Below, in pieces: positions 11,446-56,541 of a stretch of 64,000 nt of DNA. The notes beneath the pieces are model-generated. The model had not been told where the DNA came from, searched no databases, and saw only the letters and a list, made by a program, of their open reading frames with translations. Position 1 is the first letter of the stretch, and every line of letters begins with the position of its first letter. Position numbers and translations under genes: made by a program. The stretch comes from Naegleria gruberi (taxonomy: Eukaryota), in assembly GCA_000004985.1 (NCBI GenBank), contig GG738848.1. One strand, 5' to 3'.

Positions 11446-14142
11446 TTAGGTCTTTTTCTTCTTCTTTACACCACCAGCATCAAATTGAATGAATTGTAAT
11501 TCATACCTAGGAATTCTGAAATGCATAAATGGCATTCCAGCATTAGCAGCTTTGTTATTTGTTGAATTGTTATTTTGGTTTCGTTTTCTCTTCTTTTCCA
11601 CTGGTTGAGTAGTAGTGGTAAGAGGAGGTGTTACAGATTTGGTTTCTGATTTGACATTCGTATCAGTAATGTTATCAACTTGTCCTGAGGCAACTATACT
11701 ACTGCTACTACCAAAATTGGACATTGGTTGTGCATTCATACTCACAAAAGATGAGGTCAAATTGGAATTAACATCATTATTTTGAACATAGTTCCAGAGT
11801 GGATCAATATTTGGTCCTACAAGGGAGTTGGCAATGTCATTATTAACTGAGAGTAAGGAGTGTGGTTGTTCATCAGGATTGACAAGATCGAAATTGAAAT
11901 CTCCATCATCAAAAAGAAGAGCAAATGAATCATCAACAGAAATTGACATTCTATGTGACGCCTTTCTAGCCATAGTGACTGGAGCAACGGATTTTCTTCT
12001 GTATGAGGAAGGTTGTAAGAGAATTGAGGTTTTGTGAATATTCTCAATTTCATCCAATTTTTGTTCTTGGACGAAAATAGAGAGCAAGTCACAAACAAAG
12101 CTCAAAATTTGTTCATCTCGCTCACTAAAGTTACCTGTATGCTTGTTCAAAACTTCTAAAACTCCTACAAATTGGTTTCCACTTCCAACTATTGGAGAAC
12201 AAATAACACTCTTTGTTGAAAATCCTGTTGTTTTGTCCACTTCTGGTGCAAATTTAGAATTACTCCTCACATCAGGTATATTCACACTCTTTCCACTTTG
12301 GAAGCATGATCCTGCAATCCCTCTGTCAGAAGGAATTCTAATTTCATCTTCGCCAATTGCAACTTGTGAAATGAGCTCGTCTGTTTGTCTATCGTACATG
12401 AATAATGTTGTTCTTTCTGCATGTAACATTCTGGTAATACATGAGATTATGTGTTGGAAGAAAACTCCAACCGAGTGCAAGTCCTGTCTTAGAACAGATA
12501 AACGTCTATAGACACAACCCTTCTCTGTTGTTGACTCTCCAATTTTAACATGGTTTTCTTTCTTTTGGGTATTGTTGTTATCTCCTCCATTTTCAGCACT
12601 ATTTTCAACAACTGGAGTTGTTGATGAGGATGCAACCTTTTCTTGAGGCTCAATTCTAAAGAATGAAGGATACATATCCATAGCATACCTGGTTGGGAAG
12701 GCAGCTGGTGGAGTATTCTCTTCACCCCACAATTCAAAGGTTTGGGTCAATTCGTGTCTGTCCTTTTCTTCTGTATTGGAGGTTGTTTCTGGGTCACTGC
12801 TGGATACTTCTTTTTGAGGTGGGAATTTGTAGGTGTTAAGAGTTTCTTCGTCCTTTTTAGGTGGTGGGAATGTAAAGGCAGTAAGGGATTGATAAATATC
12901 ACCCTTTGGAGTGCCATTAGCAGAACCATTTGTACTATTTGGTGTTGAAGGTTGAGAAGTGGAAGTAGCGGATGGTGGCAGCATTGAGCCCATCATTTGT
13001 TGTTGACTTTGAATTGCTCTTGAAATAATATCAGGATTGCTGGAAATGTTGATATTATTGTAGAGATCTAGCATTTTTAGAACTTGTTCATATTTAGACT
13101 TGGCAAAAAGTAAGCAATGTTCTGCAACAACTGCTGTTCCGTATTGTTGAGCTTTGGCCCATTGTTGAAAAACGTTATCCACAGAAAGAGTTCCAATAAT
13201 AAATTCTTGGCATTGACTGAGAAGTGCACTCAGCTGATAGAATTTAGCTGCTTGATAAAGATCCCAAATCTTGTCAGATCTTAGAATGGTACAGTCAGTA
13301 TAAACAAATTCCAAAATATTATAGAAAATATCAGCAGATGCATCTTGAATCTCAATTTCCAAAATGGATGTATTGGAACATTTGACGAGAATTAGTTGAT
13401 TGAAATAATTACTCCTAGCACATAAAATTAATTTGTGAGCATAAAACTTCTTTCCTTGAATAATAAACGTCACATCACTTAAAATTGGATTATTAAAGAA
13501 TTGTTTGATGCTTGATCCCATGGTGTTACTCTTACTAATAAATGTTTGAGCTGTGGACTCTGTTATGGAACTTTGCCCCAATCCAGCCTGTCCTGCATTG
13601 TTAGTGGAACTAGAGGATGTAGAAACTGGTGATTGTGTAGGTTGTTGTATCTGCAAGATGCTTGAAGAGTTGGGAGAAATTTGTTGCAAGTTATTGTTAT
13701 TTGAAAGTTGATTTACGACCATATTCGAAAATTGATTATTCATGGGTGGTGAGGATACTTGGATTACTTGTTGATTTGAATTTTGTTGATTTAACAATTG
13801 TTGTAGCATGTTTTGTTGTTGATTTGTATTGTTTTGTTGTTGGTTTTGTTGAATAAGATTCATCAGGTTGTTGAAAATACCCATTGCTTGCTGATTATTA
13901 TTGTTAGAGGGTGATGGTTGGTTGTTTTGCATTTGTTGTTGTTGTTGGAAGAGATTGATTATACTATTCATGTTGTTATTACTATTACTATTGTTCTTCA
14001 TCATGTTGAGAAGCGAATTGATCTCATTCATTGAATTATTACCATTATTATTATTGTTGTTATTGTTGCCATTGTTATTATTCATCATCATAACTAGAGC
14101 ATTCAATAACTGTCCCGAATTTGCCTGATTATTCGGTAACAT
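11446..14142 (-). CDS. Poly-N/Q-rich regulatory protein with a BTB/POZ domain and a cNMP-binding-type GAF domain (NKFDE-like signature); 898 aa
   Basis: ATG at 14142. There are long Asn and Gln homopolymer tracts at both ends. The BTB fold reads DVTFIIQGKKFYAHKLILCARSNYFNQLI. The GAF domain reads LFMYDRQTDELISQVAIG...GIAGSCFQSGKSVNIPD...SPIV..NQFVGVLEVLNKHTGNFSERDEQIL, and the NK..FSE.DE motif matches the cyclic-nucleotide-binding GAF signature. The composite upstream region (14143..15111) may hold 5' UTR exons. Confidence 0.7.
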   Translation of the reverse strand: MLPNNQANSGQLLNALVMMMNNNNGNNNNNNNNGNNSMNEINSLLNMMKNNSNSNNNMNSIINLFQQQQQMQNNQPSPSNNNNQQAMGIFNNLMNLIQQNQQQNNTNQQQNMLQQLLNQQNSNQQVIQVSSPPMNNQFSNMVVNQLSNNNNLQQISPNSSSILQIQQPTQSPVSTSSSSTNNAGQAGLGQSSITESTAQTFISKSNTMGSSIKQFFNNPILSDVTFIIQGKKFYAHKLILCARSNYFNQLILVKCSNTSILEIEIQDASADIFYNILEFVYTDCTILRSDKIWDLYQAAKFYQLSALLSQCQEFIIGTLSVDNVFQQWAKAQQYGTAVVAEHCLLFAKSKYEQVLKMLDLYNNINISSNPDIISRAIQSQQQMMGSMLPPSATSTSQPSTPNSTNGSANGTPKGDIYQSLTAFTFPPPKKDEETLNTYKFPPQKEVSSSDPETTSNTEEKDRHELTQTFELWGEENTPPAAFPTRYAMDMYPSFFRIEPQEKVASSSTTPVVENSAENGGDNNNTQKKENHVKIGESTTEKGCVYRRLSVLRQDLHSVGVFFQHIISCITRMLHAERTTLFMYDRQTDELISQVAIGEDEIRIPSDRGIAGSCFQSGKSVNIPDVRSNSKFAPEVDKTTGFSTKSVICSPIVGSGNQFVGVLEVLNKHTGNFSERDEQILSFVCDLLSIFVQEQKLDEIENIHKTSILLQPSSYRRKSVAPVTMARKASHRMSISVDDSFALLFDDGDFNFDLVNPDEQPHSLLSVNNDIANSLVGPNIDPLWNYVQNNDVNSNLTSSFVSMNAQPMSNFGSSSSIVASGQVDNITDTNVKSETKSVTPPLTTTTQPVEKKRKRNQNNNSTNNKAANAGMPFMHFRIPRYELQFIQFDAGGVKKKKKT

Positions 14143-17914: not shown

Positions 17915-20900
17915 TTAGAAGCCCATCAAGTGTGAACCGTTTCTATCACCTCTAAAGTTAGCTCGAAAATATCTGTCTATAGCATCTGAATTCCAACCAC
18001 CCATGGCCTTGATGGTAGCATCAGGGATACCCATAATGGCAGCCTCCGTGGCTCCACCAATTCTCAACGAATGAGAAGAGTACTTTCCTGGATCAGCTTC
18101 GATCCATGTTGCAACCTGAGTTAAGATGTAAGAAATCTCAACTGTATTTAAAGAAAAACCACCGGTAAACAAAAACTTTCCTTTGTCTCTTGAATCAAGT
18201 AATTTTTGAAGCCATTTCATCGGACACAATTCAGAACCTGTCGCTTCGATACATGATTTTCTTCCTTTCTTATCATTCTTCACTTTTCTCACTGTTATAC
18301 TAAACCCCACCACCGGGAACTTCACAATCTTTAGATCCTCTATTAATAAACCACCCAATTCTGAACCCCTAAACATTGACCTTATACCAAAAATCATTAG
18401 GCACGTGTATAGAACATATGATTTTTCTTTAACAAACTGTCTACCAACAATTACCCATTTACAAATAAATTCTATTCTCCATGGATCTCTTTCTCTCTTT
18501 GTCGCCACTGTAGCCAGATTGCACATACCCTTTATCACCATCTGTACTCTAATGTTTACTGTAATATCCTCCCAACCAATCCTTTTACAAAAATGCTTAA
18601 TAGCATACATTGCACTTCGACAGTTATTACCAGATGGTGTTTTGATGAACATAAAGGTGAGAAATCTGACTACCATTTCACTAGTTGCTGGTGGAACCTC
18701 TTTTTGCTTAATAAGAAAGTTGATAAATCTATTCCAATAACTTTCATAGTTGTCTGTTGTGGATATTTCAATTGAACATGACATTAATGTATCTGCAATC
18801 TTACTCAAATCGTGACTCTGCAGTCTACTAATGTTGCTCTTATGGTCCAAAATCCTTTGCATGGTTCTAGGTTCCCTCCTTGGGAGGCTCTGAAATGATT
18901 TCCATCTAGATTCATAAAACGAATTTGATAACTTTCTATTATCTTCCACCACCACCTCTTTTTCCATACTGGATGAACCAATACCATAACTGCTTTGGAC
19001 TCTAGACAATGTTGTAATACTCTCCCTATTAGATTGAAAGGTACGCAGCACCAATTTACCACTGGCTCTGTCCAAAGGTGAGAGAATGAATCTGCTTTCT
19101 CTCTTCTGCTGGTCTTCTTTCTCACTGTATATGGTTTTGTCTTGAAGTTGTAATGAGAGGCGAATCTGTCCCATCCTATTGATACATCCAGCTGCTTCTC
19201 TACTAATTGAAAAGCTTCTTTGGTAATCTCCCAATCTGTTGGGTCTTTCTCTTGAATATTTCTGCTCAGATTGTCCGCTACTTGATTCTCCTCCGAAGGT
19301 AACCATTCTAACGAAAGCAAACGGATGTCGTGTTCGAAAATAATGCGCCATATTAGTTGAATCAATTGATTCATAATGGGAGACTTTGCTCTTCCCTTCA
19401 TTATACAATATAGAGCCACCTTTGAATCCGTGTAAACAATTAAATTCTTTCCTTTCAAAAGATGTGACCATTCTTTTAGGGCAAGATAGATCGCTCTCAC
19501 TTCTAATACATTGATATGTTCTTGGCATTGTTCTCCCTTCCAAAAACCTTGTAGTTTCAAATTTCTTTCTTTGTGGAAAACTCCCCATCCCAATCTCGAT
19601 GCATCTGTCCAAAAGTATTCCACTAAGCTTGGATATTGGAACACCTTTCCATTCCAATGGTCCAAGTTGTATAAAATCCATTGGAGATTGAAAATTACAT
19701 CTCGGTCTCTGATGCGAAATTCGGAATCCCAGCCTCCAATATTCACCTAGTCCACCACTAAAGAATAAATCGGATTCAACATCACCCTTGCAGGTTGGAA
19801 ACAGTCTACATAAGCAATTATAATACCAGTCATCCGAAACAGTTCTCTGGATGTTACTTTCTGATCTTGGTGATACTTGGCAAGGGCTATGGAAATACGA
19901 GTTCGAATTTTCTCTAATGTAGCTTCTGTCATAATTAATTTCCTGCTGACCAGATCTATCTTGATCCCAAGTAGTTGAAAGACTTTTAATGGAGTTAACT
20001 GACTCTTCTTCTTTTCGATAACTACACCTAATTCTGCACATACCATTGTAACGAATGTATTGTTCCTTAATGCAGATAAATAGGAACCAAAATGTAATAA
20101 ACCAACATCGTCTAAGTAATTGGATGGTGTTAAAGAATCTGATCTCAAAAAATTGATAAATACATTCATCATTTGTGTAAAAAAGTATGGAGATCCATTC
20201 CATCCAAATGGAAGGACTGTGAATTGCAAAACCTCTTCCTCTACTTGAATGGCAAAGTATGGTCTGTCCTTCCTTTTTACCTTCATCTGGTGATATCCGG
20301 ATTTCATATCGAACATAGAACCCCAAATTTGATCTGTCTTGTTCATTGGTACGTGTTCTAAAAACTTCTTCAACGTGTTGTACTTGAATTTGGGGATAGA
20401 ACAAAACCGATTGAGCGGTCTTAAATCGATAATCAGTCGGTATGATTCTTTCTTTGGGACCAGCCGATACTTGGCTATCACTTTTGGATTGTGACAAGGT
20501 TCCAAAGCTCCAATCTCTTTCAAAATACTCACTTCTCTTTTTAACCATTCTCTCTCTTCCAAAGACCATTCTTCTAAATTTACCTTTCCATAGTATGGAA
20601 CAAATTCTTCGTTTGTTTGAACTGATACACCCTCTTTCAACATATCCACTATTTCCATTGAAGCTCCTTTCTTCCTCCAGGTATCCCATTTGTTCGAAAT
20701 GGAATGAATAGCCTCTCTTCTTTCTTCTACCTCTCGGAAAAAACAAATCATCTACATACTCTGAACCCTCTCTTTTATTTCTCTTAGGGCAATCTTTGAT
20801 CAGATGGTTTGGGTCATTACAAATAAAGCATTTCTTCACTTTCTTCATACCATTAGCACTACCAAACATATTCACCTTTTCCTCTGCCTTATCTTTCTTA

Positions 20901-21754
20901 TCATAAATCTTGGCATTTGCATAGGATTTAACAAAACTTGTCTTACCCTTCTCCTTATGGTCGAACTTGAGTAGTTTTTCTGCCATCTTAAGCTTATCCA
21001 TGTTCTCACGCCATAATGGATTGCTTTCTATAAACGCCAATTTAGATGCTAATTCTGGATTGACGGCTTGAACTTGTAATTGGAAAGCTCTTGTCTCTAA
21101 GTTCGCAACCATTTTCTTCGTATCATCTATTTCTGGGAAAAGATTAGCTATCTTCATTGTAAAAGCAGAATCCTTTCTCAAATTCTCATATTCTGTAAGA
21201 AGACTAGAATTAGTTGTTGGCAATGGTGTGTAGATTGTATCTGTGTATTTTCTAACTTCAGATTCAGCTGCCAATTGTTGTAAAACACGTTCTGTTTCAG
21301 CTTTTTCCAGCTTCATCTGTGCAATCTTAGCATCGATTATTTGTTCATAAGCCTTAAATCTCTTCACATCTTCTTCTGATACCTCTTCTCTCTTTCTCTT
21401 GTTAGAGCCATCTTCAACTTCTACAACTGACTCACCATCGTCCTCTTCGTCATCATCATCGTCATCATCATCTCTTGCTTCCTTGAATGCATGTTTAATC
21501 TCATCCTTTAACTTCTCTACATCTTTACTCTTGCCACTTGTGCAAACCGTAAACTTGTCTGCACCAATAAAGTCAACAATTGCCTTTGCCAATACCTTCT
21601 TTTGGCCAGAAACTTCAATTTCCAAGGTACCTATAATCTTTTGTATCAAGGCCTTTGTTAACTTTCCAACAGCACTTTTATCATGCTTCTTAAGTATGTC
21701 AGTGATGGTTTCTTGAATTGTTGATTGACTCATAATGTGTTGCAATTTTTTCAA
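17915..21754 (-). CDS. Retroelement ORF A: Gag-like N-terminus with CX2CX4HX4C zinc knuckle, then a C-terminal tyrosine recombinase, in one uninterrupted 1279-codon frame
   Basis: Starts MKKLQHIMSQ within repeat A1. The knuckle is CFICNDPNHLIKDCPKR. The YR boxes are HSLRIGGATEAA and GGWNSDAIDRY at the C-terminus. The middle ~600 codons have no recognisable domain yet stay open while overlapping the RT/RH frame. Confidence 0.75.
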   Translation of the reverse strand: MKKLQHIMSQSTIQETITDILKKHDKSAVGKLTKALIQKIIGTLEIEVSGQKKVLAKAIVDFIGADKFTVCTSGKSKDVEKLKDEIKHAFKEARDDDDDDDDEEDDGESVVEVEDGSNKRKREEVSEEDVKRFKAYEQIIDAKIAQMKLEKAETERVLQQLAAESEVRKYTDTIYTPLPTTNSSLLTEYENLRKDSAFTMKIANLFPEIDDTKKMVANLETRAFQLQVQAVNPELASKLAFIESNPLWRENMDKLKMAEKLLKFDHKEKGKTSFVKSYANAKIYDKKDKAEEKVNMFGSANGMKKVKKCFICNDPNHLIKDCPKRNKREGSEYVDDLFFPRGRRKKRGYSFHFEQMGYLEEERSFNGNSGYVERGCISSNKRRICSILWKGKFRRMVFGRERMVKKRSEYFERDWSFGTLSQSKSDSQVSAGPKERIIPTDYRFKTAQSVLFYPQIQVQHVEEVFRTRTNEQDRSNLGFYVRYEIRISPDEGKKEGQTILCHSSRGRGFAIHSPSIWMEWISILFYTNDECIYQFFEIRFFNTIQLLRRCWFITFWFLFICIKEQYIRYNGMCRIRCSYRKEEESVNSIKSLSTTWDQDRSGQQEINYDRSYIRENSNSYFHSPCQVSPRSESNIQRTVSDDWYYNCLCRLFPTCKGDVESDLFFSGGLGEYWRLGFRISHQRPRCNFQSPMDFIQLGPLEWKGVPISKLSGILLDRCIEIGMGSFPQRKKFETTRFLEGRTMPRTYQCIRSESDLSCPKRMVTSFERKEFNCLHGFKGGSILYNEGKSKVSHYESIDSTNMAHYFRTRHPFAFVRMVTFGGESSSGQSEQKYSRERPNRLGDYQRSFSISREAAGCINRMGQIRLSLQLQDKTIYSEKEDQQKRESRFILSPLDRASGKLVLRTFQSNRESITTLSRVQSSYGIGSSSMEKEVVVEDNRKLSNSFYESRWKSFQSLPRREPRTMQRILDHKSNISRLQSHDLSKIADTLMSCSIEISTTDNYESYWNRFINFLIKQKEVPPATSEMVVRFLTFMFIKTPSGNNCRSAMYAIKHFCKRIGWEDITVNIRVQMVIKGMCNLATVATKRERDPWRIEFICKWVIVGRQFVKEKSYVLYTCLMIFGIRSMFRGSELGGLLIEDLKIVKFPVVGFSITVRKVKNDKKGRKSCIEATGSELCPMKWLQKLLDSRDKGKFLFTGGFSLNTVEISYILTQVATWIEADPGKYSSHSLRIGGATEAAIMGIPDATIKAMGGWNSDAIDRYFRANFRGDRNGSHLMGF
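18805..20751 (-). CDS. Retroelement ORF B: reverse transcriptase plus RNase H, in the +1 frame relative to ORF A, with one in-frame stop at 19747..19749
   Basis: RT motifs are LPFGWNGSPYFF and SNYLDDVGLL. The RNase H motif is LIVYTDSKVALYC / TDASRLGWGVF. The two track ORFs 19747..20751 and 18805..19746 share one frame and are split by a single stop. The frame begins exactly where the Gag part of ORF A ends, which suggests a frameshift junction near 20751. Confidence 0.75.
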
Positions 21755-42429: not shown

Positions 42430-45400
42430 ATGAATTCTAGAAACATCTACAGCAACAATGCAGGGTCGGTTGTTGGCTCAGATAGTTCTCAAGAATCACA
42501 CAATACTTCCAGCACAAATTCTTCATCATTTCAACACAAAATACGAGTGGAAGTCTTTAACTTTTTCTTTGCCTCACAGAATGTATCTAAAAAGCAAGGA
42601 GGTAAACGATTTTTTGCAATCCTATTATTGTACATACTAATTTATTGGAGTTATATATGGCTTCCTGTATTAAGCCCACAAGATTTTCACTTTGGTGCTT
42701 GGGGTTCATGGATATTTTCAGTATTTAACTATACAACAAGTTTATCAATGGATTTACTTCCGTATGAAGGAGCAATTGCTGTGGCTAGTATAACCATGAC
42801 TTTTATTGCAATAACCGTTTGTATTACTATTATTACTCTGTGGGCTGTAAAGTCTACTTCTCAATACATTAAGAAGATTCAAATGATTCTTCACATCAAT
42901 GCCTACTTAATAATAGTACTCTCTGCTCCTATAATATTTATTTTGACTAGTTTTGTGGATTGTGATTATGGATACAACCCAAGAGAATCATTGATAAATT
43001 TTGTATCTCACCATGCTAATGGTACTTCAATAAGTTCAACAGCAACTCTCACACCCATGCTCAACAGATTTACAAGCATGGAATGTTATTCAACAAATAA
43101 CATCATCTTGATGGCTGTCACCCTCTCATTCATTGCCTTATATTTTGTATTGTGTGTATTGGCCAACTTTTTGGTACCAAATTCACATCCATTAAGCTTT
43201 GCCCCAATGATAACGGAGGGTTACATCTTTCCTATTGGTATGAGTTTGGGAAATTGCATTGGAATTTTGGTACATTTCCTCATACCAGCAGAGTATGCTT
43301 TTGTGAGGTCTATTGTACATTTAGTATATGGCATGTGCATGCTTGTTGTTATTATGAAGAGTTTGCCAATGTATAGAAGATATGAAAACACAATTGTATG
43401 TGGAGTGGTATGCGCAAGATTTGGCACATCAATAGGAAGTATCATTTCCTTTTTTGTAAATGCATCGAACACTGCTGAAATTGGTATTGGAATGTGGGCT
43501 TTAACAACAGGACTGGCTGTTGGATTGGGTTTAGTGGGAGCTGTATCTATGGATATTTATACTCGTTACGTAATTTACTTTATCAAAACTAGATATATCT
43601 TATCAGTAAGATCATCTGATAGATCACTTGAAAAGGAAGCAACAAATATTTATTTCAAATTGGAAGAGGATGGAACCATGTACAAAATGATGTTATATAT
43701 GAGATTTGTTTTAATGAGATATGCTAGAACAAAGACAGAGGAATTAGAAGACAAGTACGACTTGGTTGCATTGATTTCATTCATTAGAGGAATAAGCTCT
43801 CAAAAGTGCTTCAGCGATATTGAACTGTTATCTATGGCTGGAACACTTGTTGGTTATCTGATGGTTGATGAAATGCACTCTTCATATTTTGCTCAAGCTT
43901 TGCTAAAGAGGGCTCTTAAACAGCGACCAGATGTCTATAAAAGATTCCTCATTCATCAAAGATTAAGGGAAGTAGAATTAACAGGTGCTGATGATGTTAA
44001 GGGAAGTAGAACCGTGCTTGAGTTGAAATCTATAATGCTCAATATTCAAAAATATATTACTGAACTCACTTCGTTACATCGTCACTTCTGGAAGGAATTG
44101 ATGCAGGAAATTGTGAACTATGAAAAGGCAGAAAATATAGTTGCAAGATGCTCTGTTATCAACCATGAATTAGATTCCATGTTCGACAACATTTTATCAC
44201 TGTACTATAATGACAAAACTGTACTGAGAACTTATGCCAGCTATTTAGAAAATTTCAAATTCAACAAAGAGCTTGCCAATGAATATTACACAGAAGCATC
44301 AAGTTTGGAAGAAGAAGAATCAAGGATTCCTCTCGCTCAAAAAGGTAATAGAAGGACAAAGAACAAGGTATTCCCAGATGTTCAGGAAAGTGTGGACATA
44401 TCTAAAAAGCTAGGCCCAAAAGGTTTGGCCGTTGGTAGAAGTGTTGCATTTGAAAATTTGGAAACAGCAAGTTACTTGTCTAGCAATATGGATTTTAATG
44501 GGGTTGAGAATGCTAATGCTGATACAAAGAGAGAAATTGGGTTTAGAAATGCCCTTTCTCTTCCTGATTCACACACCATTCACATTATTACTTTCGTTTT
44601 CTTTATTGTATTTGCTTTCATATTATTAGTTGTTGGTTTGGTTATTGGCTTACAATTCTCCAAAGGTGTAACAATGAATGTTGTTAATGTAATTGAAGCT
44701 TGCTCTCCAATATGCGCCTTGAGCAATGTTTTACAATCTGTTCGAGCATTCCAAATGCATTCAATGTTCAACTCTACCCTTGGCTCTTCCAATATTCCAT
44801 TAACTTTAACATCAGAGTCCTACATTGATTTGGCAAATACTAAGATTTTAGTTTCCAAATTCAAAGATATTCTTGTAAATCTGCAACAAAAAGCCTACAA
44901 TGCCAAGTTCGATGGAACTGTTTATTCAAATTATCATGAGGTTTACAGTGAAATTTACATGCCAAACATTGGTGATGATTCAAAATTTTATAACCACACT
45001 ACAAAGATCAATGTGACAGTGACAGATGTAACCAATACCCTTATTAAGATTTCTGATCAAATTATCAATTCAAAGGAAAATGATATAACTAAAACACTGA
45101 ACAGTTATGGATTCATGTTCCTTTACATCAATCATGAATCAATTACAGACATATATGACAAATTTTGTAATATCTTTACTGATTCTGCCAAGACTGAGGC
45201 CCTAGCAATCAACAATATCTTCACGATATATATTTCTGTGTCTCTGGCCACGTTTATATTGTGTGGAGCACTTTACATGATATTCTCAAGAAAGGAATTG
45301 ACAGTTGTTAGGGAGCAAATCAAACTCATTCAACATAATGTTTCCAAGAATGAAATTGGTAAATTATTCCATGATTTGGGTAAAAAAGTTGGTGACGAGG

Positions 45401-47695
45401 TTTCAATTCACATATCTAGAAATTCTCTATTCAAACCAAAGAATGCATTCTTGATCGTTTCTGCCTTTTTAATTATTATTGTTTCAGTGAGTTGTGGAAT
45501 TTACCTTGACCAAACTTTGGGTAATTCAACATACAGTTTTGAATCATACATTACAATGGAGGATGGTTTCGATACAATGACTCACTTGCAGTATGTTTCC
45601 TTTATTGGAACAGAGTATTTTTCACATGTAACAACAAGTATTGTCGGTTCTGAAACGTTACAGCTACTTGATGATGATGAAGTAGAAGCAATGGAGGACA
45701 AATTGTCTTATCTTACAAAGCAATTGAGATATTTTTGGAATCTGTGTATGTATGGTTCTTCAGTTAAGGCATATGAAACTCTTGTGGTTGGTATGTTCCC
45801 AGAGACTGATCAAATGATTAGAGGTTCTGTGAATTGTACTGTTGAAAAGTTGTCTGAAACCTATATTGCTGGAGGTAACAATTCCACAACATGTGAAATG
45901 GGCATTGACTATATGGTACAAGATACCATTCTAATGATTTACAAAATGGTTCAAGATTTGGAAGGTGTTCATCATTCCAAGGGTAAAACATCAATATCCA
46001 CTCTGATTGATTTATTGAATGATTATTTTAAAATCAATTATATGACCAAGACCATTTCCTTAAAGTTAATTGAATTTTCCAACATTTTTGCTGTCAAGTC
46101 ATCAACTCCTCTATTGAACAACATGATTGGTCTGGCAGTGGTTGGATTTGCAAGTAACATAATTTGTGCCATATTAATGTTCCTCTTGTTGAATAATCAT
46201 AGAAGAAGTGCATTTGCAATGAGAGGTTTATTCAACTATCTTTCCATTGATACATTGGAGAATAATGAGAAATTGAGAAACTATGCTCTATACCATACTC
46301 TTGGAGACAATGTACTTTCTAAGCTCAAGACAAAGAAACAAACTCAAAACGGAGAAGATGCTAAAGTCAGATCCATTTTGAATGCTGCTGTTGATGGTGT
46401 TGTACTTTGCTCTAGCTCTGCAAGTATTGATATTTTCAATCCAGCAGCTCAGAGAATGTTTGGTAATCAACAAGAAGATGTTATTGGCAAATACATTTTC
46501 ACTCTATTTGCACCACAGCATCATGGAGAAATTAGAAAATCAATTGAGGGAATGAAACATACTGTATCAGCCAATGATTCAAAGGGAGAAACCTTTGAAA
46601 TTGAATGTATAAGAAAGAATAATACTACATTCCCAGCTACGGTCAATATTTTCGTAACAATTTTCGACAAGAAACCAATCATTACTTGTTTTATCAAGGA
46701 TATTACTTCAGAGAAGAAGGTATGTATTTAATCAAGTAGTTATTTTAATTTACTTTTTACAATAATAGCACAATTCATTACTTGCTGAGGAAAAGAAGAA
46801 TTCAGAGACCTTATTGTTGAATATTTTGCCTGGAGCTGTTGCTTCGAAACTTAAATCTGGAGCATCTCTTATTGCAGAAAGATTCCCAGATGTAACTTGT
46901 TTCTTCTCAGACATGGTTGGATTTACATCACTCTCTTCCAAGTTGACTCCCAATGATCTAGTCCAAATGCTTAATAGTATTGTTATGGGATTTGATGATT
47001 TGATGGATAAATATCACTTGGAAAAGATTAAGACTATTGGTGATGCTTACTTTGCAGCAGGTGGTTTGCATGATTTGAATGCTCAATCTGATCACCCGGA
47101 AAGAGTTTTGAGATTTGCTATTGATACCTTCTCTGTCATTAGAGCCTACAATTCTGAGCATAGAAAGGGAAGAGTAAATGAACAAATCAATATTAGAATT
47201 GGTATAAATACTGGACCAGTTGTAGCAGGTGTTATTGGTCGTAAGAAGTTTGCCTACGATTTATGGGGTGATTCAATTAATACAGCCTCAAGAATGGAAT
47301 CTAACAGCAAGCCTGGAAGAATTCAAATTTCACGTTCGACCTATGAGAGAGTTCACGATTTGGGATTCACCTTTGAAGAAAGAAAGATTGAAGTGAAAGG
47401 AAAAGGTTTAACTCAAACTTACTTACTAGATGCCAAACATCATCAATCTGCTGTACTAACAGAGGAGGAGCTTACTGTAACTATAACAACCAATCAAGAT
47501 CACTATCAAGATGCTGATATTGAGCTAGAAGAAAATGAGGAGAGTTACCTCGAATTGGAAAAAACACATTTAGAAAAACCAAGTTTGCCTGTTGGTCAAT
47601 CAATGACATTTGGAAGTGTCAGTGAAATGAGTGATGAGCCTAATCCAAAAACTATTCCAACGATTCCAACAATCACAACAACAGAATTTGAATAA
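42430..47695 (+). CDS. Large polytopic membrane protein with C-terminal PAS domain and class III nucleotidyl cyclase catalytic domain, about 1738 aa; join(42430..46719,46769..47695)
   Basis: ATG at 42430. There are at least 10 predicted TM helices in several clusters. The PAS-like block is ILNAAVDGVVLCSSSASIDIFNPAAQRMFGNQQEDVIGKYIFTLF. A 49-nt intron runs AAG|GTATGT...AATAATAG. The cyclase motifs are LLLNILPGAVASKL, DVTCFFSDMVGFTSLSS and IKTIGDAYFAAGGL. Confidence 0.8.
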
Positions 47696-47704
47696 ATATT
47701 AGGT

Positions 47705-48916
47705 TTATCTTCTTCTTGTATTTGCATTGGTAGGAGCAGTATTTGGTTGACGAGGAAGTTGAGGTGGTGTTGGAGTAGGTCCTACAACCTCTTCTTCTTC
47801 CTCTGATTCATCATCAACACCATGCATGTTTCTAAATTCTGTATGAGTTGCCTTGTCGACTGTTGAACCAGTCACTTCCGTCAAAAAGTTCAGTATTTGA
47901 TCCATATCTAACAACTCCTTTCTTAGCCTAGATCCATGTTGATAAATGTACAAGGGAGTTGCACTTTCCTTTGTTTTCATACCTAGTTCATCCTTATTCT
48001 TTTCAATATAAAATTGTTTTTCAAATTGTTGGATAAGTTTTTCAGGTAATCCAAACACAGAGTGATAATGTCCTTTTTCAATTCCAAGTTTTAACAGTAA
48101 TTTCCACATTTCCTCTTCATCCAAACGATTCTTTCTTATTTGAATAAGACAGACAATTACCATCAATAATCCTATTTGTGACTGTTCAAGTCCCTCCAAA
48201 CTAAATTCACGTCTCTTACGTTGAATACTGTTCGAACTTGCTTGTTTCTTTTCCTTTTTAGACAGGTCTAATAGTGGCAAACCATCAAGGTCTGCTGGTA
48301 ATAATCGAAGAATATATATTCCTGAAGACTTTTTCTTTTGTTTTTGAGTTTGTGTAGCTTGGGTTGACTTGGTGTTAACATCAGCATTTGTGTCATGCCT
48401 ATCTATTTCAACTAATTCAAATCCAAATATTTTGATGAATCTTTGTGAGGCTTTTCCGAGTAAATTATCGAGCAACCCCTTTCTCCCCTTGTATTTTTCA
48501 CCAAGAACCGTTGCATTCAAATCTTCTTTTTTAATTGGTAATTTGTTTGCATCTTTGAACAAACAAAATCTCATCAGACTTCCAATTAAATGTTCCTCTT
48601 CCTGTTCTAATAAATTAAAATTGGGAGGCTCTTGTGTTGCTTTTGGTTTTTTAGCTCGTGGATTACTTTGTGTGGTTTTTCTCTTCCTATTATTTGATGG
48701 TACAACTTCAGCCTCTTCTTCCGAGTCATATGAATCATCTTCCTGTTGTTGTGACGCAAAACGTTGTGATGATTGCGATTGTGATGGTGGTATTACTTTT
48801 CTCTTAGGTGCCTACAATACATTGATCATCATTCCAAATAACAAATCATCAAAAAATTCGTATGTGAGTTTGCAAATTAATTTGAAAACGTTTTCTCAAA
48901 ACAAATAACGTACCAT
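47705..48916 (-). CDS. NSE3/MAGE-homology-domain protein (SMC5/6 non-SMC element 3-like), about 369 aa; join(48916..48914,48811..47705)
   Basis: Exon 1 is the ATG alone, followed by GTACGT. A 102-nt intron ends at TGTATTGTAG(48812). The spliced protein starts MAPKRKVIPPSQ. MAGE-type blocks are PIKKEDLNATVL, IKIFGFELVEI, IGLLMVIVCLIQIRKNRLDEEEMWKLLLKLGI, GLPEKLIQQFEKQFYIE and LYIYQHGSRLRKEL. Confidence 0.6.
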
Positions 48917-51650: not shown

Positions 51651-54600
51651 ATGCCTTCGCCATCTCTTCTTGATAATCCTTTTCAAGCTGTGCAAAGCAC
51701 ATCTGCTTTGTACACAATCAATATTAGATCTTTCTTTCTTCAAAAGAGAGATCGAATTGTTTTCTTGTCAGTTGTGATCATACTACTAACTCTTATACTT
51801 CCGCTATATCATGATATTTATTATGAGAATAGTTTACTTTCAAATACAATATTTTGCACAAATAATTTAAATAATGAGAGGTCAAATCAAATATTTTCGA
51901 CTGATGAATGGTCTGATAGCATGCACTGCAATTCTTATGTTGCAAACCATCCATTCATCAAGAATTGTCAATTCTCTGACTATTTTCCTCAATTTTTAAG
52001 AAGCATTCCAAAGATTTATATAATTTTTGCTGAATACGCGATCAAATTTATAATTTACATGTTTCTGTTGATGATATATTGGAGATTTCATAATGTAATG
52101 AACAAGCTCTTCAAGTTTTTATTACTTAATGAAACAATAGAAATGGAAAATGAGGCAAGGCAGCAAAGAACCTCAGGGGAATCACATCATGTGTACCTGC
52201 TGTGTTCTGAAGTTTCTAGATGTTTGTGTTCATCAATTTGGATAATGAGTGTACAAATGGTGTTGGGAAGAAATGCTCCAGCTTTTTTATGGATTTTAGT
52301 ATATAGTTGTCTTGGTTCGGTTGCTCTAGAAATGAGTAAGAAGCCAAGTATCGATTCCAAACAACAAACACATGTGACGCCTCCACCTGAACGTTTGCCC
52401 ATGTACAGAAAAATATTTAACTTTTTAAGGAAACTAATAATAGGCACACATGCGACAACATACGTTACTATTACAGTAATGGTGATATGTGAGCTCTTTG
52501 TAATGATTTACTATTTGAAATATTCAGCTTCATTTTGCTCATGCGTTGTAGTTTCTATTCTTATTGTACAAGTAATGACTATTGAATTGATAGATTTTAT
52601 GAGAAATCACTCTATTGAGTTTGTACAACAACGAGAGATGCAAAGTATGAAAAAAGTAGCCAATTTATATAAGAATCTATACATGACAGCACCTGACACA
52701 TTTCTCTCATGTGTATGCGATAGTGATGATGTATTAGTAAGACCATCCGATACAAAGGTGGAATCAGCATACTTGTTTCTTCAGTCATTCAAGATTGTCC
52801 AATACAACAACACAGCAATAGATACACTTTCATGTGCTTCCTCACTCTCCATTAATCCTGATAATTATTATAATCATTCAGATCATGAAGTGACTCTTGG
52901 TGATGTGATTATTAATCCTTACAAAGAATCTGATGAGGTAATGAGAACAGCAGCACTTGGAGGAAATTTACTCAGTGTCAGCGATTTACAAAACTCTGCT
53001 GTGTTGAAGCTTGGTGAAGTGTTGCAGGATGTTATTCAATCACCTTTTGACCAAACATCTAAGCAAACACCAACTCACGAGAGAATCCTCCCCTTGTTTG
53101 TTAAAGGAAAAAATCAAACAATACTAACATGCTCTTTGAGTATATCAAAGATTTTGCTCTATGATATCGACTCTGCAGGTGAGGGAATGGTCTTTTTTAA
53201 TATCATTCTTCACGACATTACTCAAAAATACAAACTATTGGATGAAATCAATGTAGAAAAGGAGAAAGCTATTGAGGCCAACAAAGCAAAGAGTCAATTT
53301 TTAGCACAAATGTCGCACGAATTGCGAACTCCTCTTCATGGTATTATTGGCCTTACTGATGTGTTGCTATCAAAATGTAAAGAAGAAACAGAAAATGAGA
53401 AAAACTTGGACACGTTTGATAAGGCTGTAAATCTCAATAATATTTGCAAGGATAGCGCCACTATTGCATTTGTGGAAAGTGAAAAATCTCACTCACCAGT
53501 ATTGGAACAACAAACGAACATTATTCAGACAATAAGGTATAGTGGTAACATTTTACTAGGCCTTATTAATGACTTATTGGATATTTGCAAGATTGAATCC
53601 TCGAAAATCAAGTTGGAAAATAAGAAGTTCAATTTGAGACGTGCTATTGACCAAATTCATTGTGGAATGTTTCAATTACAAGCTAGAGAAAAATCATTAG
53701 AGTTCAATTTACAGCTCGGTGAGAATGTTCCAACTTTTATAGTTGGCGACGAGTATCGTCTTGTTCAAATCCTTATCAACCTGGTATACAATGCCATTAA
53801 ATTCACCGATATGGGATCAGTTTCTCTCATTATTGAGTCAAAACCACCATCTGAAGACAACGTTTATGAGCTTACATTTAAGGTAACTGATACTGGAATC
53901 GGAATTTCGCAACATGATTTGAAGAGATTGTTTCAACCCTTCTCTCAAATATTGAGCACTTCACACAAGCAGACCAAGATTAATGAAGGTACTGGCTTGG
54001 GTCTTTACATTTGCAAACAACTTGTCGAAATGATGAGAGGTACCTTGTGTGTTGATAGTGAGGAAGGCGTGGGAAGCACTTTCTGGTTTACCATTAAATT
54101 CCATGGTGAGTTTATTCCTGGCTTTGAAGAAACAACCCGCTCCAAGATACTTTCTAAGAATGTATCGTCTAAATCACTGCTATCCCTAGAAAATTGCAAG
54201 AAAAATGAGCTAACAACAGTTAGAACACCAACTATTGAGGATTTTGAATCAAGTTTACCAAAATTGAAAATTCTAATAGTTGAGGATAATGCAATCAATA
54301 GAATTGTTTTGATTAATATGTTGAAGAAAATTGGTTGTACAAATATTGCAGTGGCTCAAGATGGTTTGGAGGGTGTTCAACAATTTGAAGAATTTAAAAA
54401 GACCAATCAACTTTTTGATATAATTTTTGTTGACATTTTCATGCCTAGATTGGATGGTTATGGAACTGTAAGAAGAATACTGGAACTAGAATCCAACGAT
54501 CCTTCCGATCATCACTCGATTCTAGTAGCCCTGACAGCAAATGGGTTTGAGGAAACCAGAAATTATTGTCTAGAGCATGGATTTGATGTGTTTATGAGCA

Positions 54601-54680
54601 AGCCATTCTCAATTACTGATTTAGAGCAGTGTGTAACAAATTGCATGACCAGAATCCATCCAAGTAGTATAATTCCGTAA
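51651..54680 (+). CDS. Hybrid sensor histidine kinase: N-terminal multi-TM domain, HisKA, HATPase_c, C-terminal receiver domain; 1009 aa, no intron detected
   Basis: ATG at 51651. The H-box is FLAQMSHELRTPLHGIIGL, the N-box LINLVYNAIKFT, G1 DTGIGIS and G2 GTGLGLYICKQLVEMM. The receiver has KILIVEDNAINRIVL, the phospho-acceptor Asp in DIIFVDIFMPRLDG and MSKPF. Confidence 0.85.
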   Translation: MPSPSLLDNPFQAVQSTSALYTINIRSFFLQKRDRIVFLSVVIILLTLILPLYHDIYYENSLLSNTIFCTNNLNNERSNQIFSTDEWSDSMHCNSYVANHPFIKNCQFSDYFPQFLRSIPKIYIIFAEYAIKFIIYMFLLMIYWRFHNVMNKLFKFLLLNETIEMENEARQQRTSGESHHVYLLCSEVSRCLCSSIWIMSVQMVLGRNAPAFLWILVYSCLGSVALEMSKKPSIDSKQQTHVTPPPERLPMYRKIFNFLRKLIIGTHATTYVTITVMVICELFVMIYYLKYSASFCSCVVVSILIVQVMTIELIDFMRNHSIEFVQQREMQSMKKVANLYKNLYMTAPDTFLSCVCDSDDVLVRPSDTKVESAYLFLQSFKIVQYNNTAIDTLSCASSLSINPDNYYNHSDHEVTLGDVIINPYKESDEVMRTAALGGNLLSVSDLQNSAVLKLGEVLQDVIQSPFDQTSKQTPTHERILPLFVKGKNQTILTCSLSISKILLYDIDSAGEGMVFFNIILHDITQKYKLLDEINVEKEKAIEANKAKSQFLAQMSHELRTPLHGIIGLTDVLLSKCKEETENEKNLDTFDKAVNLNNICKDSATIAFVESEKSHSPVLEQQTNIIQTIRYSGNILLGLINDLLDICKIESSKIKLENKKFNLRRAIDQIHCGMFQLQAREKSLEFNLQLGENVPTFIVGDEYRLVQILINLVYNAIKFTDMGSVSLIIESKPPSEDNVYELTFKVTDTGIGISQHDLKRLFQPFSQILSTSHKQTKINEGTGLGLYICKQLVEMMRGTLCVDSEEGVGSTFWFTIKFHGEFIPGFEETTRSKILSKNVSSKSLLSLENCKKNELTTVRTPTIEDFESSLPKLKILIVEDNAINRIVLINMLKKIGCTNIAVAQDGLEGVQQFEEFKKTNQLFDIIFVDIFMPRLDGYGTVRRILELESNDPSDHHSILVALTANGFEETRNYCLEHGFDVFMSKPFSITDLEQCVTNCMTRIHPSSIIP

Positions 54681-54903: not shown

Positions 54904-56541
54904 ATGGAAGATATTCTTGTAACTTGTTTCGTGTACATCCCTCTTGGATGTATTCTTTTACTTTCAATCTTATTGGTGGAAAGATACGTTCAATATAAGA
55001 AACTTTGCAAAAAATATGAACACTTACCAGGTGTTACTCAATTTTTACCACCTCACATTGCTCAATTCCTTCCTAAATGGATGCTCCCAGATGGAATCAT
55101 TGATAATCCATTCGAAATCTTTACTCCAGACACAATCCTTCGAATCATTAAGGAAAATAATAGTGATTACTTTAAAATCATATTTGGTATTGCCAATTTA
55201 TCATTTGTTATTGGTGACTGTCCTGAATTAGCCAAAGAATTTGCAACCAAGGGTGCAAAAGTATTCAGAAAAACAGAATTTATGGACAGATCGAGTAAAG
55301 AATTATTTTTTGGAACCAACGTATTTGCTGAGCCAGACCACCATACTTGGTTAAAGCATAGACAATTAATTGATCAAAGTTTTTCACCATCCAATTTGAA
55401 ACTTGTTGCAGATGTTACTAATGAAGTGGTTGAGAAGGATATGATTCCTGCCATTAATTCTCAACTTGAAAGAAGAGATGTAATGGTTGACATGGCGAGA
55501 TTGACAATGGATGTTATTGGAAAGGCAGCTTTTGGATATAGTCTTAATTCATTCCATTCAAAGCCAGGTGAAGTAACCTTGGAACAACAAGGTAATATTT
55601 TTATGAGCTATCTTGATTATCTGAGAGTTATTCCAACAAAATTTTTGAGAAGTAACCTCAAAATTGGTGCTGTTGGTAAATTGCACTTTGCTGTTAAATC
55701 ATTCACTGATGTCATTAGTAAGATTATTGAAAAGAGAGAACGAAGTGATGATAAAGATGAAGCTGCCGATATTTTGTCTCTCCTATTGAAGGAGAGAAAG
55801 AATAATAGAGATCAATCGAGTGGTGGCATTTTGACTGATGAAGAACTAGTGTCAAATTCATTTGTGTTATTAGTGGCCGGCCATGATACTACGTCTAGAA
55901 CACTTGGTTATGCCACTTACTTACTCTCCAAGAATCCTCATATTCAACAAGAATTGCACGATGCAGTTGACAAAGTCGTAAAGGAAACTGGAAAAGATAC
56001 ATTTGATTTCTCAGACTATGAAAGTGGAAGATTGGACTATGTGAAAGCAGTATTTAATGAAGTGTTGAGATTAATCCCTGTTGCTTTTGGTTCTTTCAGA
56101 GATTTAACCAAAAATGTTGAATATAACGGAACAGTATTTCCAAAAGGAGCCATTTTTGGCATTTCATTTGTTCACACTCTCGTCAATGAAAAGTATTGGG
56201 ACGAACCATTATCTTTCAAACCAATGAGATTTATCAAGGATGGAAAGTTTATTGTTCCAAACAGTAATCCATTTGTTTTCACGCCATTTGGTGTCGGTGG
56301 AAGAATTTGTGCAGTAAGTTATTGAAATCAATCATCATGATTATTAATATTCTCTCTATTATCTATATATCAATAGGGTCGTTATTTCTCAACAGTTGAA
56401 GGATTATGTGCATTGGCCAAGTTAGCTAGAACCTACTCTTTCAAACTCTCAGATCCAAATTATGTTGTTCAACACGAAATGCACATTACATTGAAGCCAA
56501 AAGAGACTCTCTATGTTGATTTCATTCCTCGTCAACTCTAA
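54904..56541 (+). CDS. Cytochrome P450 monooxygenase, 524 aa; join(54904..56313,56377..56541)
   Basis: ATG at 54904 with an N-terminal membrane anchor. The ETLR-like block is EVLRLIP. A 63-nt intron (GTAAGT...CAATAG) lies inside the heme loop, and the join FGVGGRICA|GRYFSTVEGLCALAKL restores the canonical FxxGxRxCxG motif. Confidence 0.85.

What the first reader, a model, noticed from the sequence alone, without database searches (positions are those of the whole stretch)
42430..47695. Unusual architecture: >1300-aa polytopic N-terminal region, then PAS, then a single class III cyclase domain
The canonical eukaryotic membrane cyclases have either 2x6 TM with two catalytic domains, or a single-TM receptor with a kinase-homology domain. 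This protein instead has several separated TM clusters (at least 10 helices), large loops, a single PAS domain immediately before one catalytic domain, and no second cyclase domain. It must therefore homodimerise. The N-terminal region has no recognisable transporter or receptor signature from sequence alone.
Basis: partly seen in the sequence, partly recalled or inferred. Interest (0 to 1): 0.55.

Follow-up and report, generated by a model that had tools for sequence, protein, structure and literature searches.

The report
Naegleria receptor-type adenylyl cyclase, TmcB-like anchor
This is a real, intact Naegleria gruberi gene for a 1738-residue membrane enzyme that most likely makes cyclic AMP as a homodimer; it belongs to an unstudied gene family of heterolobosean amoebae, and its 12-helix membrane part resembles a Dictyostelium regulator of cAMP signalling and has the same layout as the Trichomonas transmembrane cyclases.

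Summary
Window 42430..47695 (+) is one two-exon gene with a 49-nt GT..AG intron. Its product is 100% identical to an N. gruberi 'predicted protein' of 1738 aa.

- **Architecture.** The parts run in this order: 8-TM bundle, cytosolic helical repeat (Pfam TPR_TmcB), two tandem TM–helical ectodomain–TM modules, one PAS, a linker helix, and one class III cyclase domain.
- **Catalysis.** All six canonical residues sit in the single domain: D1478/D1522, K1518/D1594 and N1601/R1605. This predicts a homodimeric, ATP-specific cyclase.
- **Distribution.** The whole architecture recurs in at least 35 cluster representatives. Every named one is heterolobosean (Naegleria, Willaertia, Acrasis).
- **Folds.** AlphaFold models are confident. 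The ectodomains resemble bacterial periplasmic four-helix-bundle sensors at fold level only. The 8-TM bundle matches no solved transporter or receptor fold.
The architecture is not unprecedented. The Trichomonas transmembrane adenylyl cyclases described in 2010 have the same layout, with no PAS reported. Also, the organism is not an amoebozoan.

Verdict: a new variant of a known kind, of moderate interest. The ligand and the role of the 8-TM/TPR module are unknown.

The parts
42430..47695 (+). Whole gene (start ATG to stop TAA), 1738-aa product
   Evidence: The product is 100% identical to N. gruberi predicted protein P0001.
42430..46719 (+). Exon 1 (residues 1-1430)
   Evidence: Uninterrupted frame.
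46720..46768 (+). 49-nt intron, GTATGT...AATAG, with an in-frame TAA at 46729-46731
   Evidence: Sequence. The junction is conserved in P0007 and P0008.
46769..47695 (+). Exon 2 (residues 1431-1738 plus stop)
42610..43557 (+). 8-TM bundle (residues 61-376). It has a conserved Cys pair C178/C219 in the exoplasmic TM3-TM4 loop, a conserved cytosolic motif P313-x-x-R-R-x-E-N320, and a conserved sequon at N344.
43627..44325 (+). Cytosolic all-helical repeat (residues 400-632, 11 helices). The Pfam TPR_TmcB hit covers residues 529-632 (window 44014..44325). Conserved motifs are F553-W-K555 and R600-x-Y602-A603.
44575..45285 (+). Sensor module A (residues 716-952): TM9, helical ectodomain 1 with a beta hairpin, then TM10. 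Cys pair C758/C913 and sequon N861 are conserved.
45433..46197 (+). Sensor module B (residues 1002-1256): TM11, helical ectodomain 2, then TM12. Cys pair C1136/C1155 and sequons N1032 and N1135 are conserved. It may be a duplicate of module A.
   Evidence: hhalign of A versus B: probability 60-81%, E 1.5e-6 to 8.7e-5.
46363..46707 (+). Cytosolic PAS domain (residues 1312-1426)
   Evidence: Pfam PAS_9 5.2e-18 and PAS 1.9e-8. The closest solved PAS is the FixL haem-PAS (E 2.5e-7), but no conserved proximal His.
46708..46873 (+). PAS-to-cyclase linker helix (residues 1427-1465, ..EKKHNSLLAEEKKNSETLLLNILPGAVASKLK..). It is interrupted in the DNA by the intron. I take it to be the cyclase-transducer-element type of linker.
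   Evidence: It aligns with the helix preceding C2 of mammalian AC8/AC9. The assignment to the transducer element rests on my own knowledge.
46874..47431 (+). Single class III cyclase catalytic domain (residues 1466-1651). Key codons: D1478 (46910-12), K1518 (47030-32), D1522 (47042-44), D1594 (47258-60), N1601 (47279-81), R1605 (47291-93).
   Evidence: Pfam 1.6e-55. PDB alignments. Residue positions. Family conservation.
47432..47692 (+). Acidic, low-complexity C-terminal tail (residues 1652-1738)
   Evidence: Translation. No domain hit.

Best explanation
The gene encodes a receptor-type, homodimeric, ATP-specific class III adenylyl cyclase. It belongs to a multigene family found in heterolobosean amoebae.

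**Shown**
- One intact gene.
- Twelve TM helices, with the N-terminus, the TPR-like repeat, the PAS domain and the catalytic domain on the cytosolic side.
- Two exoplasmic helical-bundle ectodomains of about 180-200 aa. Each is bracketed by TM helices that continue as long helices into the bundle. Each carries a conserved Cys pair and conserved N-glycosylation sequons.
- A single catalytic domain with both metal aspartates, the Lys/Asp adenine-selecting pair and the Asn/Arg transition-state pair.

**Inferred mechanism**
1. Two chains dimerise through the catalytic domains, giving two symmetric active sites.
2. An unknown extracellular ligand or physical cue binds the four-helix-bundle ectodomains, as in bacterial chemoreceptor and histidine-kinase sensors.
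3. Binding displaces TM12. The movement passes through the cytosolic PAS dimer and the linker helix to the catalytic dimer, and changes the rate of cAMP synthesis.
4. The PAS domain may add an intracellular input.
5. The 8-TM bundle and the TPR_TmcB repeat form a conserved module that also occurs without a cyclase. They probably act as a second sensing or partner-binding unit. Their role is the least certain step.
For: - **Gene model.**
- **Domains.**
- **Catalytic residues.** They align with AC8/AC9 C1 and C2 and with mycobacterial homodimeric ACs. Positions are D1478, K1518, D1522, D1594, N1601 and R1605. In the family they are conserved in 35/35, 33/35, 31/35, 28/30, 25/27 and 24/26 sequences.
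- **Topology.** Hydropathy. K+R 28 inside versus 5 outside. Conserved Cys pairs and sequons occur only in the predicted exoplasmic loops.
- **Structure.** The model of residues 61-1260 has mean pLDDT 87 and pTM 0.62. TM9 and TM11 continue as 68- and 70-residue helices into the ectodomains.
- **Family.** The N-terminal profile finds 157 cluster representatives. About 35 long ones all end in PAS plus cyclase. All named ones are from Naegleria gruberi, N. fowleri, N. lovaniensis, Willaertia magna or Acrasis kona.
- **Precedent.** Trichomonas TMACs have the same topology, and their recombinant catalytic domains make cAMP and not cGMP (PMC2914791).
Against: - No ligand, expression or activity data exist for this protein or any family member.
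- Inter-domain packing in the full model is only moderately confident (pTM 0.62).
- The dimer was not modelled.
- The roles of the 8-TM bundle and the TPR repeat are unexplained. In principle they could be the main functional part, for example a transporter.
Confidence: 0.7

Rival explanations
1. The membrane region is a transporter or channel, and the cyclase is fused to it. Known examples are the K+-channel adenylyl cyclases of Paramecium and Plasmodium and the P4-ATPase guanylyl cyclases of Apicomplexa. cAMP output would then report on, or regulate, transport rather than binding of an extracellular ligand.
For: The 8-TM bundle is compact and very confidently predicted (pLDDT 92, pTM 0.88). 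It has conserved polar and Pro/Gly positions inside helices: N224, P286, G325, G352 and G370. Fusions of cyclases to transport proteins are known in protists (cited in PMC2914791).
Confidence: 0.12
2. The cytosolic PAS domain is the real sensor, for example of O2, redox state or a metabolite, as in FixL or DosP. The membrane region then serves only to anchor, localise or dimerise the enzyme.
For: The closest solved relatives of the PAS domain are the haem-PAS domains of FixL (E 2.5e-7) and DosP/EcDOS. The PAS sits directly before the catalytic domain.
Against: The position aligned with the FixL proximal histidine falls in the E1367-K1370 segment, whose columns are dominated by K, I or L rather than His. 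The nearby H1364/H1365 are variable in the family and absent from the N. fowleri orthologue. The ectodomains carry conserved Cys pairs and sequons, which an inert anchor would not need.
Confidence: 0.13
3. It is a guanylyl cyclase, or a dual-specificity cyclase.
For: UniRef names some N. fowleri family members 'Guanylate cyclase domain-containing protein'. The Pfam family covers both activities.
Against: The substrate-selecting pair is Lys1518/Asp1594, as in adenylyl cyclases, not Glu/Cys. The pair is conserved in the family. Trichomonas TMAC catalytic domains with the same overall architecture showed no guanylyl cyclase activity.
Confidence: 0.04
4. The gene model is an artefact: two neighbouring genes (a membrane protein and a PAS-cyclase) joined by a false intron, or a pseudogene.
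For: No transcript data were available here. The PAS-to-cyclase junction depends on one predicted 49-nt intron.
Against: The membrane region and the PAS domain lie in one uninterrupted 1430-codon exon. The intron has GT..AG ends and restores the frame. The spliced junction is colinear with N. fowleri and paralogous proteins. About 35 independent cluster representatives from five species have the same domain order. All catalytic residues are intact.
Confidence: 0.01

Closest known systems
Trichomonas vaginalis transmembrane adenylyl cyclases (TMACs; Cui et al. 2010, PMC2914791)
   Same: The layout is the same in order and scale. TMACs are about 1450-1700 aa, with 6-8 N-terminal TM helices, a conserved cytosolic domain of about 300 aa with unknown function, 4-6 TM helices separating two extracellular domains, and one C-terminal cytosolic type III cyclase domain. 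They form a multigene family, and the recombinant catalytic domain is ATP-specific.
   Different: No PAS domain is reported in TMACs: the word does not occur in the paper. The two families come from different eukaryotic supergroups (Metamonada versus Discoba). The authors considered TMACs unique to trichomonads. Sequence homology of the membrane parts could not be tested here, because no Trichomonas sequence was reachable.
Dictyostelium discoideum TmcB (tiny macrocysts protein B) and the Pfam family TPR_TmcB (PF25474)
   Same: Residues 529-632 match the TPR_TmcB model above its gathering score (59.3 versus 27 bits). Cyclase-less proteins of unknown organism carry the same parts: an 8-TM bundle, TPR_TmcB, PAS domains and two TM-ectodomain-TM modules (P0151). 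tmcB is reported to regulate the cAMP pathway in sexual development (as cited in PMC8516963 and PMC12750705).
   Different: As far as I know, TmcB itself has no cyclase domain. I could not retrieve its sequence, so only the TPR repeat is shown to be shared with it.
Homodimeric class IIIa membrane adenylyl cyclases of mycobacteria (Rv1625c/Cya type; PDB 5o5k, 4p2f, 7yz9)
   Same: They have a single catalytic domain with the D, D, K, D, N, R set at identical spacing (K-x3-D and D-x6-N-x3-R). A preceding linker helix is present. Sequence similarity is strong (E 4e-52 to 6e-47). Their membrane anchors have been proposed to act as receptors (PMC4821796).
   Different: The anchor in those enzymes is a 6-TM bundle, with no ectodomains, PAS or TPR repeat.
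Bacterial four-helix-bundle (4HB) periplasmic sensor domains of chemoreceptors and histidine kinases (Adeh_2942, LytS-N, PilJ, PcaY, NarQ, TorS)
   Different: Identity is only 3-11%, and designed bundles score equally. Here two such modules lie in tandem, stabilised by conserved disulfide-type Cys pairs and glycosylation sequons, and ectodomain 1 has an extra beta hairpin. Homology is not shown.

Membership tests
Class III nucleotidyl cyclases (Pfam PF00211), adenylyl-specific, homodimeric type | Catalytic domain matches the family model above threshold | tested here: met
   188 bits against a cut-off of 21.9, covering profile positions 3-182 of 183.
Class III nucleotidyl cyclases (Pfam PF00211), adenylyl-specific, homodimeric type | Two metal-binding Asp, plus the transition-state Asn and Arg, all in the same chain (needed for an active homodimer) | tested here: met
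   D1478, D1522, N1601 and R1605. They are conserved in the family.
Class III nucleotidyl cyclases (Pfam PF00211), adenylyl-specific, homodimeric type | Lys/Asp substrate-selecting pair (ATP) rather than Glu/Cys (GTP) | tested here: met
   K1518 and D1594. K is present in 33/35 and D in 28/30 family members.
Class III nucleotidyl cyclases (Pfam PF00211), adenylyl-specific, homodimeric type | Measured adenylyl cyclase activity and dimeric state | not testable with these tools
   Needs an enzyme assay and size determination.
Trichomonas-type transmembrane adenylyl cyclases (TMAC) | [quoted passage not shown] | tested here: met
   Eight TM helices at 61-376, then a cytosolic region at 377-715 that contains TPR_TmcB. 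Compared with the description in PMC2914791.
Trichomonas-type transmembrane adenylyl cyclases (TMAC) | 4-6 further TM helices separating two extracellular domains, then one C-terminal cytosolic type III cyclase | tested here: met
   TM9-12, with ectodomains at 746-925 and 1029-1230 and a cyclase at 1466-1651.
Trichomonas-type transmembrane adenylyl cyclases (TMAC) | Sequence homology of the non-cyclase parts to Trichomonas TMACs | not testable with these tools
   No Trichomonas sequence could be retrieved. None of the 30 representatives looked up by name was from Trichomonas. The afdb50 library was unavailable.
TmcB-like membrane proteins (Pfam TPR_TmcB, PF25474) | TPR_TmcB repeat above the gathering score | tested here: met
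   59.3 bits for the whole protein and 62.7 bits for the isolated region, against a cut-off of 27.
TmcB-like membrane proteins (Pfam TPR_TmcB, PF25474) | Homology to Dictyostelium TmcB over the membrane domains as well | not tested
Indirect support: cyclase-less TPR_TmcB proteins (P0151 and fragments) match the 8-TM and ectodomain profiles.
Haem-binding PAS sensors (FixL/DosP type) | Conserved proximal histidine on the F-alpha helix | tested here: not met
   The best PDB hits are FixL, but the aligned position falls in the E1367-K1370 segment, whose family columns are dominated by K, I or L rather than His. H1364/H1365 are not conserved either.

The most novel reading that the evidence does not exclude
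The 12-TM 'TmcB-type' module (an 8-TM bundle of a fold not yet solved, a TPR_TmcB repeat, and two TM-helical-bundle ectodomain modules) may be an ancient eukaryotic sensory module dedicated to cAMP signalling.

- It would be fused to an adenylyl cyclase in Heterolobosea and, by identical topology, in Trichomonas.
- It would be free-standing in Dictyostelium (TmcB) and in other protists.
- The fusion would then act as a Rosetta stone. It would predict that Dictyostelium TmcB regulates sexual-cycle cAMP signalling by directly sensing an extracellular cue and acting on an adenylyl cyclase.
- It would also mean that Trichomonas TMACs are not trichomonad inventions.
Probability: 0.3. Interest if true: 0.65.

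Novelty: new variant of a known kind. Interest (0 to 1): 0.42.

Why it matters
Naegleria carries dozens of membrane cyclases thought to serve environmental sensing ('at least 81 cyclases', PMC9928731). None of their sensor parts has a known ligand.

This work defines one coherent subfamily with a confident structural model. It predicts ATP specificity and homodimerisation, and it identifies two disulfide-braced helical-bundle ectodomains as the likely ligand sites. It also links three previously separate observations:
- the Trichomonas TMAC layout;
- Dictyostelium TmcB, a genetic regulator of cAMP signalling with no known mechanism;
- the heterolobosean PAS-cyclases.

If the link is real, it gives a testable mechanism for TmcB. 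It also offers a candidate surface-receptor family in the pathogen N. fowleri, which has several paralogues.

Tried and rejected
1. **Word-index homologue searches.** The full-length query gave only 6 hits, mostly through the cyclase and PAS domains. The TPR-region alignment A3 gave one hit and did not retrieve Dictyostelium TmcB. Both were unproductive, and the exhaustive profile search was needed.
2. **AlphaFold database search.** Foldseek against afdb50 would have shown TmcB and TMAC models, but the library was not installed.
3. **Foldseek against PDB with the 1200-residue model.** Nothing was significant. The best hits were TPR proteins at E about 1.
4. **Haem-PAS idea.** It was prompted by the FixL hits and rejected because no histidine is conserved at or near the proximal position.
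5. **Internal duplication of the two ectodomain modules.** BLASTP was weak (E 0.12). hhalign gave 60-81% probability. This is suggestive but left inconclusive, because TM composition can inflate the score.
6. **Other cyclases in the window.** I looked for a second cyclase copy or paralogue and found none.
7. **Literature on tmcB.** Only secondary citations were found. The primary paper is not in the library.
8. **Trichomonas paper supplements.** They contain no protein sequences.
Full report
**Check of the observation**

The window is AT-rich (about 34% GC). It holds an open frame of 1433 codons at 42430..46731. By my calculation from the base composition, a frame this long arises by chance with probability about 1e-46.

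The frame ends in a TAA that lies inside a GTATGT...AATAG element at 46720..46768. Removing these 49 nt joins the frame to the next one, which runs to the TAA at 47693-47695.

The spliced protein has 1738 residues. It is 100% identical over its full length to a 'predicted protein' of Naegleria gruberi (P0001). The junction ..DITSEKK|HNSLLAEEKKNSETLLLNILP.. is colinear with the N. fowleri orthologue P0007 and with an N. gruberi paralogue P0008.

**Domain content**

Pfam finds one Guanylate_cyc domain at 1466-1651 (1.6e-55) and one PAS at 1312-1426 (PAS_9, 5.2e-18). There is only one cyclase stretch, and no other cyclase-like sequence occurs in the window.

**Topology**

Kyte-Doolittle hydropathy and the AlphaFold secondary structure agree on twelve TM helices:
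- eight in a cluster at 61-376;
- TM9 at 716-745;
- TM10 at 927-952;
- TM11 at 1002-1028;
- TM12 at 1232-1256.

With the N-terminus inside, K+R residues flanking the helices number 28 on the cytosolic side and 5 on the outer side.

Across 61 family sequences, the conserved Cys pairs are C178/C219, C758/C913 and C1136/C1155. The conserved N-x-S/T sequons are N344, N861, N1032 and N1135. All of them fall in the predicted exoplasmic loops. The TPR-like repeat, the 953-1001 linker, the PAS domain and the catalytic domain are therefore cytosolic. The 746-925 and 1029-1230 loops are ectodomains.

**Catalytic domain**

The best solved relatives are mammalian AC8, AC9 and AC5 (both halves) and the homodimeric mycobacterial cyclases (E 2e-58 to 6e-47). 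From these alignments and the residue positions, the single domain carries:
- both metal aspartates, D1478 and D1522;
- the adenine-selecting Lys1518 and Asp1594;
- the transition-state Asn1601 and Arg1605.

The spacing is K-x3-D and D-x6-N-x3-R. By my recollection this is the spacing of Rv1625c. In mammalian enzymes these residues are split between C1 and C2. Having all of them in one chain is the signature of an active homodimer with two sites.

The residues are conserved in the family: 35/35, 33/35, 31/35, 28/30, 25/27 and 24/26 sequences. The prediction is an ATP-specific homodimer. It is inferred, not measured.

**PAS domain**

Its nearest solved relatives are the haem-PAS domains of FixL (E 2.5e-7) and DosP. 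The residue aligned with the FixL proximal histidine lies in the segment E1367-K1370. That segment holds no histidine, and its family columns are dominated by K, I or L. The nearby H1364/H1365 are variable and absent from the N. fowleri orthologue. I therefore reject a conserved haem sensor. What this PAS binds, if anything, is unknown.

**Family and distribution**

A profile of residues 61-1260 was searched against 1.84 billion cluster representatives. It gave 157 hits at E<=1e-3 and 73 at E<=1e-30.

A local phmmer run showed that about 35 of the long hits have a PAS and a cyclase domain at the C-terminus, in the same order.

Thirty representatives were looked up by name. All that carry names are from Naegleria gruberi (at least seven paralogues including this one), N. 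fowleri, N. lovaniensis, Willaertia magna or Acrasis kona. One unnamed metagenomic eukaryotic contig shows the same order, TPR_TmcB ... PAS ... Guanylate_cyc, split by introns.

The more distant hits share the TPR_TmcB repeat. Local profile searches show that several of them also match the 8-TM profile and the ectodomain profile. One of them, P0151 (1913 aa, organism unknown), has the 8-TM bundle, TPR_TmcB, three PAS domains and two TM-ectodomain-TM modules, but no cyclase. The membrane module therefore exists independently of the cyclase.

**Structure**

| Model | Residues | Mean pLDDT | pTM |
|---|---|---|---|
| m049349f9fda0 | 61-1260 | 87 | 0.62 |
| me82c09d8b925 | 55-398 | 92.2 | 0.88 |

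The region is almost entirely helical. TM9 and TM11 continue as helices of 68 and 70 residues into the ectodomains, and long helices return into TM10 and TM12. This is the construction of bacterial TM-four-helix-bundle-TM sensors.

The two modules may be duplicates of each other (hhalign probability 60-81%). That remains inconclusive.

**Mechanism**

*Shown:* the anatomy and topology described above, and an intact catalytic set.

*Inferred:*
1. Chains dimerise through the catalytic domain.
2. An extracellular cue binds one or both helical-bundle ectodomains.
3. TM12 moves, and the change passes through the PAS dimer and the linker helix (..LLAEEKKNSETLLLNILP..) to the catalytic dimer.

The linker helix aligns with the helix preceding the catalytic domains of AC8 and AC9. 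From my own knowledge it corresponds to the cyclase-transducer element.

The 8-TM/TPR_TmcB unit is conserved (the P313..RR.EN320, FWK555 and R600.YA603 motifs). It probably adds a second input or a binding platform. This is the weakest part of the model.

**Comparison with what is known**

The closest described system is the Trichomonas TMAC family. Cui et al. describe proteins of 1450-1700 aa with 6-8 N-terminal TM helices, a conserved cytosolic domain of about 300 aa, 4-6 TM helices separating two extracellular domains, and one C-terminal type III cyclase. The recombinant domains make cAMP and not cGMP (PMC2914791).

The Naegleria protein fits every topological feature and adds a PAS domain. 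Those authors judged TMACs unique to trichomonads. I could not test sequence homology, because no Trichomonas or Dictyostelium TmcB sequence was reachable and the AlphaFold database library was unavailable.

Dictyostelium tmcB is cited as a regulator of the cAMP pathway in sexual development. A fusion of a TmcB-like module to an adenylyl cyclase is therefore suggestive of direct functional coupling.

**Verdict**

Its claim of an unprecedented architecture and its taxonomic guess need correction. The gene is a new variant (with PAS, in Heterolobosea) of a known kind of protist receptor-type adenylyl cyclase, in an uncharacterised family. Interest is moderate (0.42). It would rise if the TmcB, TMAC and heterolobosean modules prove to be one ancient family.

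Noticed in passing
window 47705..48574 (-): An ORF with a MAGE homology domain (1.1e-32; Nse3-like is my guess) converges on the cyclase gene. Its stop codon lies only about 10 nt from the cyclase stop at 47695, so the 3' UTRs must overlap.
   Followed up: no
window 17915..21754 (-): A 1279-aa ORF has a weak Phage_integrase (tyrosine recombinase) hit at its C-terminus (2e-5, 24.9 bits, below the 27.1 cut-off). The stretch has slightly higher GC (0.38) and strongly negative GC skew. It may be a Crypton- or DIRS-like mobile element.
   Followed up: no
window 51651..54680 (+): A hybrid histidine kinase (HisKA, HATPase_c and a receiver domain) lies 4 kb downstream of the cyclase gene. A cytochrome P450 gene follows at 54904..56325.
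   Followed up: no
window 11446..14142 (-): An 898-aa protein combines a BTB/POZ domain (1.7e-25) with a GAF_2 domain (7.5e-9). This is an unusual pairing of a small-molecule-binding domain with an adaptor domain.
   Followed up: no
window 3820..7610 (+): Two overlapping ORFs (3820..5433 with DBINO; 5382..7610 with SNF2 and Helicase_C) look like one INO80-type remodeller gene, split by an intron or a frame change near 5382-5433.
   Followed up: no
P0151 (locus L003 329..6070), organism unknown: This cyclase-less TmcB-like protein has a first PAS domain that reads ..NVNVMMPQPFSSLHQGFINDYM... By eye, a histidine sits where FixL has its haem-ligating histidine (..MPEPDRSRHDSYISRY..). Some TmcB-like proteins may therefore be haem/O2 sensors, unlike the Naegleria cyclase.
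   Followed up: partly
locus L001 5213..9885 (JGI metagenome 3300037860, 132-kb contig): An unidentified eukaryote encodes the same TPR_TmcB ... PAS ... Guanylate_cyc order, split into several called genes, presumably by introns. A PPR-DYW deaminase gene lies on the same contig.
   Followed up: partly
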